Shown in pieces: positions 6,589 through 9,417 of a stretch of DNA of 64,000 bases (its first letter is position 1; each line of letters begins with the position of its first letter). The stretch comes from Promethearchaeota archaeon (GTDB lineage Archaea; Asgardarchaeota; Lokiarchaeia; Sigyniarchaeales; SOKP01). The translations under genes were made by a program, and so were the position numbers. The stretch covers positions 96,001 to 160,000 of the forward strand of contig JAGXNO010000001.1 of the NCBI GenBank assembly GCA_019894975.1, in the 5' to 3' direction. The notes under the pieces are model-generated. The model did not search any database and was not told the DNA's origin. It worked only from the letters and a program-made list of their open reading frames with translations.

Positions 6589-8499
6589 ATGCATACTATT
6601 TCAGATACAGAACTCTCTCAATTATTGAGAAAATACCAAAAGAAGCAAGTAACTATCGATGACGCTATAAAAAAATTCATACAACCCGGAAATAGAATTT
6701 TTATTGATTCAGGCTGCTCGGAACCTATAGATCTAACTAAAAAGTTGATTGAGCTTGGACTAAAGCTTCCAGATGTAGAAATCTTACATTTTCTTAGCTT
6801 GAGTGATCTTGATTATTATAAAACTGTTGGGGGGATAGAAGATTTATTTAGACATAATGCTTTATTCATTGGAAAATCACTTCGTAAGTATATAAGAGAA
6901 GGTCAGGCAGACTACACACCAATACTACTTTCGGAAATCCCAAGGTTATTTAAATCGGGCAAGATGCATTTGGATACGGCTTTAATTCAAGTGAGTCCCC
7001 CTGATAAATATGGATACTGTAGTTTTGGTATAAATGTAGATATTGTAAAACCAATAGCCGAAGTAGCTAATTGTGTAATTGCTGAGATAAATCCAAAAAT
7101 GCCGCGGACCTGGGGAGATTCTTTTATTCACATGGATGAAATTGATGCCTTTGTTATTTCAAATCACGACTTAATTGAATACAGTTACGGAAAACCTGAT
7201 AAAACAGCAAATGATATTGCGAAATATGTAGCGTCTTTAATAGAAAACGAATCAACAATTCAAATGGGGATAGGAATAATCCCTAACGCTGTTACTGATG
7301 CACTCCATGAAAAAAAGGATTTGGGTGTTCATAGTGAAGTATTTTCGGATGGGATCGTCGATCTTGTTGAACAAGGTGTCATTACATGTAAGAAGAAAAC
7401 AATACATAAAGATAAGATTATATGTTCGTTTGTTATGGGCTCAAAGAGACTATATGATTTTGTAAACGATAATCCTATGGTGGAATTTCACCCAAGCGAT
7501 TATACCAATGATCCCTTTATTATCAGCCAGAACAAAAGGCAGGTTGCAATAAATGCTGCACTTTCAGTAGATCTAACAGGACAAGTGAATTCAGATTCTA
7601 TTGGATATAAATTTTATAGCGGAATTGGGGGACAGGTTGACTTTGTCCGAGGTGCTGCTCGTGCAAAGTATGGTAAACCAATAATGGTAATACCATCAAC
7701 AGCAACATTAAAAGATGGAACAGTTGTTTCTCGGATAGTACCATATCTTCAACCAGGATCGGGAGTAGTAATTACAAGAGGGGATGTACATTATGTTGTT
7801 TCCGAATGGGGTATCGCATATTTATATGGGAAATCTATACGTGAAAGAGTTCTTCAAATGATAAATATTGCGCATCCTGATTTCAGAGAAGAACTTCTAG
7901 AACAGGCAAAAAAATGGAATTATGTGTACTCAGATCAAAAATTACCTGTCTCTATTGATGGTAGAATTTCCATATATCCTCAAAAATATGAGATTATGAT
8001 AACTTTGAAAAATGAGAAAGTAATAAAAATCCGACCAGTGAAACCCACTGATGAGAGAATGATCCAAGAGTTACATTATTCTCTTGACGATAGGGATAGG
8101 TACCGGCGTTTTTTTACTCCTATGAAGGACTTTCGTCATAAGAAAATTGCCCCAATGGTGAATATTGATTATTCTACTGATATGATATTAGTTGCTGTCG
8201 ATAGTGAGAATGGAGAAGAAAAGATTATTGCGATGGGTGGTTTTTTTAAGACAGGTCAACCTTCTTTAGCAGAATTATTATTTGTAGTTCATAAAGATTG
8301 GCGAGGATTAGGATTAACAAGATTCTTATTACCGTTTCTTGTTCAAATTGGACGAGAACTTAATTATAAGAGTTTAGGGGGTTCAATGTTACTTGAAAAC
8401 AAGGCGATGATTCATGTTATTAACACTTCTGGATATGAAATAAAACTCAGAAGAATTGAGAGTGGTGTAACTGAATTTATTTTTGACATTTCAAAATGA
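6589..8499 (+). CDS. Acetyl-CoA hydrolase/CoA-transferase (4-hydroxybutyrate CoA-transferase-like) fused to C-terminal GNAT domain
   Basis: LIQVSPPD.GYCSFG, QMGIG.IPNA, LGVHSE, SGIGGQVDF and IAHPDFRE motifs. C-terminal IRPVKPTD...RFF...VHKDWRGLG is GNAT-like. Confidence 0.9.
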   Translation: MHTISDTELSQLLRKYQKKQVTIDDAIKKFIQPGNRIFIDSGCSEPIDLTKKLIELGLKLPDVEILHFLSLSDLDYYKTVGGIEDLFRHNALFIGKSLRKYIREGQADYTPILLSEIPRLFKSGKMHLDTALIQVSPPDKYGYCSFGINVDIVKPIAEVANCVIAEINPKMPRTWGDSFIHMDEIDAFVISNHDLIEYSYGKPDKTANDIAKYVASLIENESTIQMGIGIIPNAVTDALHEKKDLGVHSEVFSDGIVDLVEQGVITCKKKTIHKDKIICSFVMGSKRLYDFVNDNPMVEFHPSDYTNDPFIISQNKRQVAINAALSVDLTGQVNSDSIGYKFYSGIGGQVDFVRGAARAKYGKPIMVIPSTATLKDGTVVSRIVPYLQPGSGVVITRGDVHYVVSEWGIAYLYGKSIRERVLQMINIAHPDFREELLEQAKKWNYVYSDQKLPVSIDGRISIYPQKYEIMITLKNEKVIKIRPVKPTDERMIQELHYSLDDRDRYRRFFTPMKDFRHKKIAPMVNIDYSTDMILVAVDSENGEEKIIAMGGFFKTGQPSLAELLFVVHKDWRGLGLTRFLLPFLVQIGRELNYKSLGGSMLLENKAMIHVINTSGYEIKLRRIESGVTEFIFDISK

Positions 8500-8556
8500 T
8501 TCCTGTTATATTTTTACTATGAACAATTTATCTCGATAACATTGCGGTGAATTATA

Positions 8557-9417
8557 ATTCTTATCTCAGAATTCCATAACCTATATAATTCTCGCGGTCT
8601 TTCACCAGAGGTAGTTTCACAATTCCGAAGTATAATTTATGGCTATTATAAACAGCAAGGTAGAAATTTTCCCTTTAGAGAAAATATAACTCCTTATAAT
8701 GTTTTAGTGTCAGAAATCATGTTGCAACAAACTCAGACAGGAAGAGTTTCAGAAAAATTTCTTGCCTTCATTGATAAATTCCCAGATTTTCATGCCTTAT
8801 CAAAAGCTTCACTGGAAGAAGTTCTTAAAACATGGCAAGGTTTAGGTTATAATCGAAGAGCAGTAGCATTAAAAAAAATAGCTGAAAATGTAATTACTGA
8901 TTATAATGGTGTTCTACCAGATTCGATCGAAACATTAAAATCTTTTCCACAGATAGGCCATAATACAGCTTCTTCAATCGTTACATTCGCTTTTAATAGA
9001 CCTACTGTTTTTATTGAAACCAATATAAGAAGAGTATATATCTACTTCTTTTTTCCTGGTAAAATTAGTATAGTCGATAAAACGATCGTTCCAATTTTAG
9101 AGAAAACTATGGATAGCGAAAACCCTCGAAACTGGTATTATGCTTTAATGGATTATGGTGTGATGTTAAAAAAAACCTTTCCTGATTTAAACAAACGAAG
9201 TGCTCACTATCGGAAACAAGCACCCTTTAAAGGTTCTAATCGAGAAATAAGAGGTAAAATATTGAAAATTCTTATAAATAATAAGAATATGAAAAAAAGT
9301 GATCTTCTGAAAGAATTAAAAGATATTAGCCCTGAAAAGCTAACACAGATCCTTAATCGATTAGAGAAAGAGAGTTTCATTAAAAACGAGAGAGGTAACA
9401 TTCAGATTGTTAAGTAA
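8557..9417 (+). CDS. mutY: A/G-specific adenine glycosylase, Fe-S-cluster-less type (probable ATT start at 8557)
   Basis: YY..GRNFPFR...PYNVLVSEIMLQQTQ, WQGLGYNRRA, HhH-like FPQIGHNTA and ETNIRRV. The conserved N-terminal part lies upstream of the ORF-track GTG at 8707. Confidence 0.85.
   Translation: MLISEFHNLYNSRGLSPEVVSQFRSIIYGYYKQQGRNFPFRENITPYNVLVSEIMLQQTQTGRVSEKFLAFIDKFPDFHALSKASLEEVLKTWQGLGYNRRAVALKKIAENVITDYNGVLPDSIETLKSFPQIGHNTASSIVTFAFNRPTVFIETNIRRVYIYFFFPGKISIVDKTIVPILEKTMDSENPRNWYYALMDYGVMLKKTFPDLNKRSAHYRKQAPFKGSNREIRGKILKILINNKNMKKSDLLKELKDISPEKLTQILNRLEKESFIKNERGNIQIVK

What the first reader, a model, noticed from the sequence alone, without database searches (positions are those of the whole stretch)
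8546..8710. mutY also lacks a canonical start: GGTGA + 6 nt + AUU
The conserved MutY N-terminus (YY..GRNFPFR..PYNVLVSE) sits in a 50-codon extension with no ATG/GTG/TTG, bounded by an in-frame TGA that is itself part of the SD GGTGA (8546-50). ATT at 8557 has the same SD+6 geometry as maf (GGTGA-TATAAT-TTG) and dnaK (GAGTGA-TATAAT-ATG).
Basis: partly seen in the sequence, partly recalled or inferred. Interest (0 to 1): 0.72.

Follow-up and report, generated by a model that had tools for sequence, protein, structure and literature searches.

The report
ATT start codon, Asgard MutYX glycosylase
An intact DNA-repair gene (a MutY-like adenine glycosylase) of an Asgard archaeon almost certainly begins translation at ATT instead of ATG, six bases behind a ribosome-binding site. 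Its relatives mostly do the same, so standard gene finders cut off 54 residues, including a catalytic one.

Summary

- **Open frame:** it runs 8551-9417 and has no ATG, GTG or TTG before GTG 8707. It is bounded by the TGA inside GGTGA (8546-8550).
- **Not an error:** contigs from three independent studies give the identical sequence.
- **Orthologs:** the nearest GTDB species has GGTGA+6+ATG at exactly the 8557 codon. The nearest metagenome relative (86% identical) has GGTGA+6+ATT.
- **Across the genus:** of 92 genus-level loci, this homologous start codon is ATT in 26, ATA in 5, ATC in 1, ATG in 11 and TTG in 3. The tree needs about 12 switches. GGTG lies 5-8 nt upstream in 30 of 32 ATH starts.
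- **Selection:** the 49 codons upstream of any canonical start have dN/dS 0.03-0.23 between ATH-started pairs, like the rest of the gene.
- **Structure:** these codons fold as confident helices of the catalytic domain.
- **Protein:** it is a clusterless MutYX-type adenine glycosylase (PDB 8UUC), not a classical MutY.
- **Public gene call:** 232 aa, starting at ATG 8719, without the catalytic Glu.
- **Genome-wide:** about 60 genes, aIF1 among them, show the same SD+ATH pattern.

This scan had already noted ATH starts on other Asgard DNA and on tatD in this window. There is no protein or RNA evidence.

The parts
8506..8516 (+). A/T-rich TTATATTTTTA, a possible archaeal TATA box about 30 nt upstream of the SD (inference only)
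   Evidence: Read from the sequence. No transcription-start data exist. The sigma-70 scan does not apply to archaea.
8546..8550 (+). Shine-Dalgarno GGTGA; its TGA (8548-8550) is the in-frame stop that bounds the open frame
   Evidence: The 16S 3' end of this genome is ...GGATCACCTCCT. G enrichment upstream of ATG genes runs from -14 to -8 with A at -7, which is the GGTGA+6 geometry.
8557..8559 (+). ATT, the most likely start codon
   Evidence: The homologous codon is ATG in G059, G061 and G062, TTG in G012, and ATT/ATA/ATC in 32 of 92 genus-level loci. Spacer 6 is the mode for SD+ATH genome-wide.
8551..8556 (+). ATT ATA, two further near-cognate codons in frame (spacers 0 and 3); possible minor starts
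   Evidence: G002 has ATG at the 8554 position. L065 has TTT at the 8551 position. Spacers this short are rare among ATG genes.
8557..9417 (+). Full coding sequence, 286 aa plus stop: clusterless MutYX-type adenine DNA glycosylase
   Evidence: PDB 8uuc_A matches at E 1.3e-54. The AF2 model has pLDDT 91 and Foldseek TM 0.76/0.79 to 8uuc_A. The protein has no Cys.
8557..8706 (+). 50 N-terminal codons with no canonical start: helices 3-13 and 17-34, the RNFPFR loop, and the start of helix 46-55
   Evidence: pLDDT is 90-97. 12 columns are invariant. dN/dS is 0.23 against L065 and 0.27 against G059.
8713..8715 (+). GAA = Glu53, the catalytic Glu (MutYX Glu33, GsMutY Glu43)
   Evidence: Alignment to 8uuc_A and 1kg6; residue roles from PMC12631127. 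The public call that starts at 8719 lacks it.
8707..8721 (+). GTG 8707 and ATG 8719, the first canonical codons and the rejected alternative starts
   Evidence: No SD-like G-rich motif lies upstream of them. The public gene call P0004 (232 aa) starts at ATG 8719.

Best explanation
The gene is intact and is translated from ATT 8557. Pairing of GGUGA (8546-8550) with the 3' end of 16S rRNA places the small subunit so that the codon 6 nt downstream sits in the P site. The ordinary initiator Met-tRNA (anticodon CAU) then pairs with AUU despite a third-position mismatch. The product is a 286-aa MutYX-type clusterless adenine glycosylase that begins (M)LISEFH. Shown here: the sequence is real; the N-terminal 50 codons are conserved, constrained and structural; orthologs start at this very codon with ATG, TTG, ATT, ATA or ATC; and SD+ATH starts are a habit of this genome. 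Inferred: the initiation event itself, Met as first residue, and the expression level. ATT has probably become nearly interchangeable with ATG in this AT-rich lineage when a strong SD is present. Alternatively, or in addition, it may hold expression of a potentially harmful glycosylase low.
For: (1) Contigs from three studies are identical over 8300-8862 or 8437-8631, at depths 30, 10.8, 7.2 and 3.4. (2) The sister species G059 (ML support 100/99) has GGTGA+6+ATG at the homologous codon. L065, 86% identical, has the same SD with ATT. (3) Among 92 genus-level loci the homologous start codon is ATT in 26, ATA in 5, ATC in 1, ATG in 11 and TTG in 3. The tree needs 12 switches, at least 6 of them forced by well-supported branches. 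Several loci have a stop directly, or one codon, upstream of the ATH codon. (4) GGTG ends 5-8 nt upstream in 30/32 ATH starts against 3/14 canonical starts at that position (Fisher p 2e-6, not corrected for phylogeny). (5) The N-terminal 49 codons have dN/dS 0.03-0.23 in pairs where both genes start with ATH. Pooled over six non-overlapping pairs the value is 0.22 (p 2e-26). For G000-L065 it is 0.23, against 0.18 for the rest of the gene. (6) The N-terminus is part of the fold: TIGR01084 matches from residue 24, E. coli MutY residues 4-35 align, and AF2 pLDDT is 90-97. (7) Genome-wide, an SD 5-mer at spacer 5-7 precedes 62/1783 ATH codons against 83/11179 other codons in pre-canonical stretches (OR 4.8, p 8e-18, 60 genes). 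Reversed and complemented motif controls are not significant. All 10 such genes tested have Pfam domains that begin upstream of their first canonical start. (8) aIF1 itself has no canonical start before its SUI1 domain. (9) The initiator tRNA is a normal CAU type.
Against: There is no proteomic, ribosome-profiling or RNA evidence. In E. coli, AUU, AUA and AUC initiate at only 1-2% of AUG (10.1101/063800), and S. solfataricus aIF1 rejects AUU in vitro (PMC4705826). The motif GGTGA-N6-ATT alone occurs at chance frequency in the window. ATA 8554 and ATT 8551 lie in frame just upstream and could contribute. The genome is a MAG with 8.55% estimated contamination. Loci from MAGs and from metagenome contigs partly overlap (84 distinct among 92), and related sequences are not independent.
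Confidence: 0.88

Rival explanations
1. Translation starts at the neighbouring ATA 8554 (or ATT 8551) rather than ATT 8557, adding one or two residues.
For: G002 has ATG at the 8554 position, 3 nt behind GGTGA. All three codons are near-cognates in frame.
Against: G059, G061, G062 and G012 and 32 ATH loci place the start at the 8557 position. L065 has TTT at the 8551 position. In many loci a stop lies directly, or one codon, upstream of the 8557-equivalent codon. Spacers 0 and 3 are rare among ATG genes (2 and 3 cases, against 19 at spacer 6), and SD+ATH starts peak sharply at spacer 6.
Confidence: 0.05
2. The gene lost its start codon recently and is silent or decaying (a start-loss pseudogene).
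For: No canonical start exists. Near-cognate initiation is weak in model organisms (10.1101/063800).
Against: L065 shares ATT with the same SD after about 14% protein divergence, with N-terminal dN/dS 0.23. The 286-codon frame is open in a 31% GC genome. 32 relatives are in the same state with intact frames and a conserved SD. About 60 other genes of this genome, essential ones among them (aIF1, TFB, V-ATPase D), share the pattern.
Confidence: 0.04
3. The product starts at GTG 8707 or ATG 8719, as in the public 232-aa gene call, and the upstream open stretch is untranslated.
For: These are the first canonical codons, and the gene caller chose ATG 8719.
Against: No SD-like motif lies upstream of either codon. 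The product would lack helices 3-13 and 17-34 and the invariant R36-F38-P39-F40-R41 loop. From 8719 it would also lack the catalytic Glu53. The upstream 49 codons are under purifying selection.
Confidence: 0.02
4. The finding is an assembly or sequencing error, or it reflects recoding: read-through of TGA 8548 from TTG 8542, or a frameshift from GTG 8547.
For: TTG 8542 and GTG 8547 exist nearby. The genome encodes tRNA-Sec.
Against: Contigs from three studies are identical, with no indels. Neither TTG 8542 nor a shifted frame is conserved in G059, L065 or the others. TGA is a normal stop here, ending 341 of 2417 long ORFs. Relatives have TAA or TAG at that place.
Confidence: 0.01

Closest known systems
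E. coli infC (IF3) and pcnB: AUU start codons behind a Shine-Dalgarno site
   Same: A near-cognate AUU placed at functional distance behind an SD, presumably read by the normal initiator tRNA. The fidelity factor's own gene uses such a start (infC in E. coli; aIF1 in this genome). Sources: 10.1101/063800 and PMC4705826.
   Different: The domain is Archaea, with aIF1/aIF1A/aIF2 instead of IF3. In E. coli only two genes are confirmed. Here about 60 genes of one genome show the pattern, and ATT is the commonest start of this ortholog across a genus. Regulation has not been tested.
Eggerthella sp. MutYX (PDB 8UUC), clusterless adenine DNA glycosylase (PMC12631127)
   Same: HhH-GPD catalytic domain without the four Cys ligands. 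The catalytic Glu is kept (Glu33 = E53). Glu replaces the catalytic Asp (Glu134 = E154). The C-terminal X domain carries the OG-recognition Gln201/Arg209 equivalents (Q221, R229). Sequence E 1.3e-54; TM 0.76/0.79.
   Different: The host is archaeal (Asgard). Tyr132 of MutYX is Phe152 here, and the Ala116 position is Asn136, so neither known Tyr position is occupied. The N-terminus carries an extra helix (residues 3-13). Activity has not been tested.
NCBI translation table 11 alternative initiators (ATT, ATC, ATA, CTG); established knowledge
   Same: ATT, ATA and ATC are listed as rare prokaryotic initiators.
   Different: Gene finders in practice ignored them here: the public call is the 232-aa truncation.
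Near-cognate putative initiation sites in Haloferax volcanii ribosome profiling (PMC7261190)
   Same: An archaeon in which about 30% of putative alternative initiation sites lay at near-cognate codons.
   Different: Those sites were set aside as possible false positives and concern alternative sites, not the sole start of conserved genes.

Membership tests
SD-directed non-canonical (AUU) initiation | No ATG/GTG/TTG in frame between the upstream stop and the conserved N-terminal domain | tested here: met
   Open frame 8551-9417; the first canonical codon is at 8707.
SD-directed non-canonical (AUU) initiation | A motif complementary to the organism's own 16S 3' end, at the spacing its ATG genes use | tested here: met
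   16S 3' end ...GGATCACCTCCT. Modal geometry is G at -8 and A at -7. GGTGA+6+ATT.
SD-directed non-canonical (AUU) initiation | The same codon position is a canonical start in orthologs | tested here: met
   ATG in G059, G061, G062 and others (11 loci); TTG in G012.
SD-directed non-canonical (AUU) initiation | The stretch between the near-cognate codon and the first canonical codon is translated (purifying selection, structural role) | tested here: met
   dN/dS 0.03-0.23 in ATH-ATH pairs; pLDDT 90-97; 12 invariant columns.
SD-directed non-canonical (AUU) initiation | Direct detection of initiation (N-terminal peptide, initiation-site profiling, toeprint) | not testable with these tools
   No RNA run was listed and no proteomics is available.
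MutYX (clusterless MutY subgroup) | HhH-GPD catalytic domain with the catalytic Glu | tested here: met
   PF00730 2.9e-14; E53 aligns to MutYX Glu33 and E. coli Glu37.
MutYX (clusterless MutY subgroup) | Absence of the four Cys ligands of the [4Fe-4S] cluster | tested here: met
   The 286-aa protein contains no Cys at all.
MutYX (clusterless MutY subgroup) | C-terminal X domain instead of the NUDIX-like domain, with the OG-recognition Gln and Arg | tested here: met
   Foldseek aligns 270 columns to the 274 residues of 8uuc_A. Q221 and R229 align to Gln201 and Arg209 and are nearly invariant and invariant.
MutYX (clusterless MutY subgroup) | Adenine excision opposite 8-oxoguanine | not testable with these tools
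   A biochemical assay is needed.
Classical MutY (TIGR01084 equivalog) | Score above the curated cut-off; FeS cluster; NUDIX-like C-terminal domain | tested here: not met
   148 bits against a cut-off of 286.5; no Cys; the C-terminal part gives only weak winged-helix Pfam hits.

The most novel reading that the evidence does not exclude
Start-codon selection is relaxed across this Asgard genus. AUU, AUA and AUC behind a strong GGUG Shine-Dalgarno serve as regular start codons for at least 1.5% of genes. They swap freely with AUG over evolutionary time, with SD strength compensating. The proofreading factor aIF1 is itself made from an AUU start, which would give an IF3/eIF1-like feedback on initiation fidelity in the prokaryotes closest to eukaryotes.
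Probability: 0.35. Interest if true: 0.8.

Novelty: new variant of a known kind. Interest (0 to 1): 0.58.

Why it matters
**Annotation.** The public protein for this gene is a 232-aa fragment without its catalytic glutamate, and several relatives are truncated in the same way. Surveys of DNA repair in Asgard archaea would misjudge this enzyme. The same applies to about 60 genes per genome, including aIF1, TFB and a V-ATPase subunit.

**Biology.** This ortholog set gives a clean natural experiment. One start position has toggled about a dozen times among ATG, TTG, ATT, ATA and ATC, and a strong SD accompanies the near-cognate states. This makes testable whether initiation fidelity is relaxed in the archaeal lineage nearest to eukaryotes. 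In model archaea aIF1 rejects AUU, and eukaryotes are the most stringent of all.

**Protein family.** The finding also extends the recently described MutYX clusterless glycosylase family to Asgard archaea.

Tried and rejected
- **RNA evidence:** no RNA holder was listed for the stretch.
- **Raw reads:** only Logan contigs could be laid, so read-level variants were not seen.
- The DNA behind the truncated public proteins P0024, P0032 and P0087 could not be fetched. A metagenome scan was used in its place.
- **Motif alone:** GGTGA-N6-ATT in the window is at chance level, so it is not used as evidence.
- **Promoter scan:** the sigma-70 promoter scan does not apply to an archaeon.
- **G011-G057 pair:** this ATT-ATT pair is uninformative for the N-terminus. 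It has 5 differences and dS 0.036, against 0.47 in the rest of the gene, which points to a recent exchange of the 5' part.
- **Dedicated initiator tRNA for AUH:** ARAGORN found few tRNAs and no tRNA-Met in this MAG. The initiator was then found by its 5' half and has a CAU anticodon and two introns. Pattern hits with AAT, TAT or GAT in an initiator-like anticodon stem in the genus are not tRNAs.
- **Anchor error:** a first anchor regex mis-placed some loci. This was corrected.
- **Literature:** searches found no paper on ATH starts in Asgard archaea.

Full report
**1. The observation**

The window reads ...cattgc-GGTGA(8546-8550)-ATT(8551)-ATA(8554)-ATT(8557)-CTT-ATC-TCA-GAA-TTC-CAT.... TGA 8548-8550 is in frame, and the frame stays open to the stop at 9415-9417. 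The first ATG, GTG or TTG in frame are GTG 8707 and ATG 8719. The 50 codons 8557-8706 belong to the enzyme. TIGR01084 (mutY) matches from residue 24 of the open frame, and E. coli MutY residues 4-35 align to them.

Maf starts at TTG 365 on the minus strand and DnaK at ATG 49037, each behind GTGA+TATAAT. The bare motif GGTGA-N6-ATT is at chance frequency in the window (3 found, 3.4 expected). It proves nothing by itself.

**2. The organism and its ribosome-binding site**

The window is G000:C87:96001-160000, from a 3.9-Mb MAG of 31.6% GC. Public names of the closest proteins are 'A/G-specific adenine glycosylase' from Promethearchaeota, Lokiarchaeota and Hodarchaeota MAGs. The genome has aIF1, TFB, a V-type ATPase subunit D and Gtr1/RagA-type GTPases. 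This agrees with the scan's note that it is a Loki-type Asgard archaeon.

The 16S rRNA ends ...GGATCACCTCCT, so the full SD is AGGAGGTGATCC. Upstream of genes whose first start is ATG, G is enriched from -14 to -8 and A stands at -7. That is the GGTGA+6 geometry seen here. All three stop codons are in normal use.

**3. Not a sequencing error**

Logan contigs of four runs from three studies were laid on 8300-8900. Three cover 8300-8834 or further without a single difference, at depths 30, 10.8 and 7.2. One of these three is from a different, permafrost study. A fourth run, from a third study, covers 8437-8631 with one difference, C>A at 8593. No indels were seen. These are contigs, not reads.

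**4. Orthologs**

47 of 54 genomes of the genus hold the ortholog. In an ML tree the window's gene is sister to that of G059, with support 100/99. G059 reads attatGGTGA-ATAATA-ATG-CTT-ATC-TCA-GAA-TTC-CAT. That is an ATG at exactly the 8557 position, behind the same SD and spacer.

The closest relative found in metagenomes is L065 (86% identical, a different sample). It reads cattgcGGTGA-TTTATA-ATT-CTT-ATC-TCA-GAA. It shares the ATT.

The 92 genus-level loci (84 distinct 5' DNAs) divide as follows:

| State at the homologous start position | Loci |
|---|---|
| ATT, no canonical start in the open frame upstream | 26 |
| ATA, no canonical start in the open frame upstream | 5 |
| ATC, no canonical start in the open frame upstream | 1 |
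| ATG at that position | 11 |
| TTG at that position | 3 |
| Longer form, starting at ATG/GTG about 7 codons upstream | 45 |
| Unclear (G021) | 1 |

- In several loci a stop lies directly, or one codon, upstream of the ATT/ATA (TAA-ATT, TAA-ATA, TAG-ATA, TAA-CAA-ATT). No other start is possible there.
- The tree needs 12 changes between ATH and canonical states. At least 6 are forced by well-supported branches.
- GGTG ends 5-8 nt upstream in 30 of 32 ATH starts, against 3 of 14 canonical starts at that position (Fisher p 2e-6, not corrected for relatedness). This suggests that a strong SD compensates for a weak codon.

**5. The N-terminal extension is translated**

For the 49 codons between the start and the first canonical codon, dN/dS is 0.27 against G059 (ATG) and 0.23 against L065 (ATT). 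The rest of the gene gives 0.16-0.18. In other pairs in which both genes start with ATT or ATA the value is 0.03-0.19, at dS up to about 1. Pooled over six non-overlapping pairs it is 0.22 (p 2e-26).

An AlphaFold2 model built on 28 orthologs has mean pLDDT 91. Residues 1-50 score 90-97 and form helices 3-13 and 17-34, the invariant R36-x-F38-P39-F40-R41 loop, and the start of helix 46-55. That helix carries the catalytic Glu53.

A product from GTG 8707 would lack all of this. A product from ATG 8719 would lack Glu53 as well. No SD-like motif lies upstream of either codon. The public gene call for this very gene is the 232-aa fragment that begins MLQQTQ. At least three relatives (P0024, P0032, P0087) are called in the same truncated way.

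**6. What the protein is**

The best solved relative is 8uuc_A, the Eggerthella 'MutYX' clusterless adenine glycosylase. The sequence match is E 1.3e-54 and the Foldseek TM-scores are 0.76/0.79 over 270 of its 274 residues. The protein has no cysteine.

It keeps the catalytic Glu (E53). It has Glu (E154) in place of the catalytic Asp, as described for actinobacterial MutYX. It also keeps the equivalents of the 8-oxoG-recognition residues Gln201 and Arg209 (Q221, R229) (PMC12631127). Tyr132 of MutYX is Phe152 here, and the Ala116 position is Asn136.

It falls well below the TIGR01084 cut-off (148 against 286.5 bits). 'mutY' is therefore right in kind but imprecise.

**7. A habit of this genome**

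I took codon positions at least 10 codons upstream of the first canonical start, in ORFs of 120 codons or more. A 5-mer of the SD consensus at spacer 5-7 precedes 62 of 1783 ATT/ATA/ATC codons, against 83 of 11179 other codons (OR 4.8, p 8e-18). This involves 60 genes. Reversed and complemented motifs give OR 1.6 and 1.3, not significant. At spacer 6 exactly, ATH accounts for 38 cases and all 61 other codons for 18.

Ten such genes were scanned with Pfam. In all ten the domain begins at residue 1-21, upstream of the first canonical start. They are V-ATPase D, Fer4+ETF, ThiF, an ABC ATPase, the TFB zinc ribbon, two Gtr1/RagA GTPases, 3HCDH, a GPN-loop GTPase and a HAD hydrolase.

The aIF1 (SUI1) gene has a 108-codon open frame whose only canonical start is at codon 88. 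An ATT is its third codon.

The initiator tRNA of G000 has a normal CAU anticodon, with two introns. I found no initiator-like tRNA with another anticodon in the genus.

**8. Mechanism**

- Shown: the anatomy, the conservation, the selection and the genome-wide pattern.
- Inferred: SD/anti-SD pairing sets AUU 8557 in the P site. Met-tRNAi(CAU) accepts it with a third-base mismatch. The protein begins with Met.

Why ATT? Two readings are open.

- In a 31% GC genome, G-to-T or G-to-A changes at the third base are favoured. They are tolerated if fidelity is relaxed and the SD is strong.
- Alternatively, the weak codon keeps a glycosylase scarce.

Both readings are untested. In E. coli these codons give 1-2% of AUG (10.1101/063800). 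Sulfolobus aIF1 rejects AUU in vitro (PMC4705826). If use here is efficient, this lineage differs from the model archaea.

**9. Comparison and novelty**

The closest known cases are the AUU starts of E. coli infC and pcnB. Table 11 lists ATT, ATC and ATA as rare initiators (established knowledge). Haloferax ribosome profiling saw near-cognate candidate sites but set them aside (PMC7261190). I found no paper that describes ATH starts in Asgard archaea.

The scan itself has noted the phenomenon repeatedly on other Asgard genomes, and on tatD in this window. I re-tested it on this genome rather than relying on those notes.

**10. Verdict**

The start is ATT 8557 with confidence of about 0.88. ATA 8554 or ATT 8551 may be minor alternatives. 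Direct protein or ribosome evidence is missing.

Noticed in passing
G000:C104:8894-9109 (locus L047, open frame local 1420-1743): The aIF1 (SUI1) gene, which encodes the start-codon proofreading factor, has no ATG/GTG/TTG before codon 88 of its 108-codon open frame. ATT is its third codon, upstream of the CPxC zinc motif. It too must start at a near-cognate codon.
   Followed up: partly
whole genome G000 (list; loci L055-L064): About 60 genes show SD+ATT/ATA/ATC starts with 10 or more codons before any canonical start. 10 of 10 tested have Pfam domains that begin in that extension (V-ATPase D, TFB zinc ribbon, ThiF, ABC ATPase, two Gtr1/RagA GTPases, a GPN GTPase, 3HCDH, HAD, Fer4-ETF). A few CTG and ACG candidates also appear.
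   Followed up: partly
92 orthologous loci: At one homologous start position, near-cognate starts nearly always have GGTG 5-8 nt upstream (30/32). ATG/TTG starts mostly do not (3/14). SD strength seems to compensate for codon weakness. The test is not corrected for phylogeny.
   Followed up: partly
window 8557-9417; proteins P0004, P0024, P0032, P0087, P0023, P0050, P0055: Public gene calls of this gene and several relatives are N-terminally truncated (231-232, 265 or 268 aa instead of about 286). The 231-232-aa forms lack the catalytic Glu.
   Followed up: yes
window 8962-8964 (N136) and 9010-9012 (F152): The Asgard MutYX-type proteins have invariant Asn and Phe at the two positions where GsMutY (Tyr126) or Eggerthella MutYX (Tyr132) place the Tyr that supports the catalytic Glu. 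Their active-site arrangement may differ again.
   Followed up: no
G000:C104, minus strand, about 140 nt: The initiator tRNA-Met (CAU) gene appears to carry two introns, one after the anticodon and one before the T arm. ARAGORN missed it. It lies on the same contig as aIF1 and the 16S 3' end.
   Followed up: partly
window 8593: Strain variant C>A (Arg15 to Ser) in a contig of a sediment metagenome from a third study, at depth 3.4.
   Followed up: no
L010 (G011) against L044 (G057): The 5' region and N-terminal 49 codons are almost identical (dS 0.036), while the rest of the gene has dS 0.47. This looks like a recent recombination that replaced the 5' part, including the ATT start.
   Followed up: no
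L043 (G058), 5' end of the ortholog: An extra A in the run TTTAAAAATT puts the GTG start used by its sister (G006) out of frame. The gene may start at an internal TTG or elsewhere.
   Followed up: no
L038 (G064): An independent case at the other (long-form) start position: GGTGA+6+ATT-TCA-AAA-ATT-AGT, where relatives have ATG/GTG-TCT-AAA-ATT-AGT.
   Followed up: partly
G000:C44:65491-65583 (minus): A tRNA-Sec (TCA) gene is present, in line with the scan's notes on selenoproteins in this genome.
   Followed up: no
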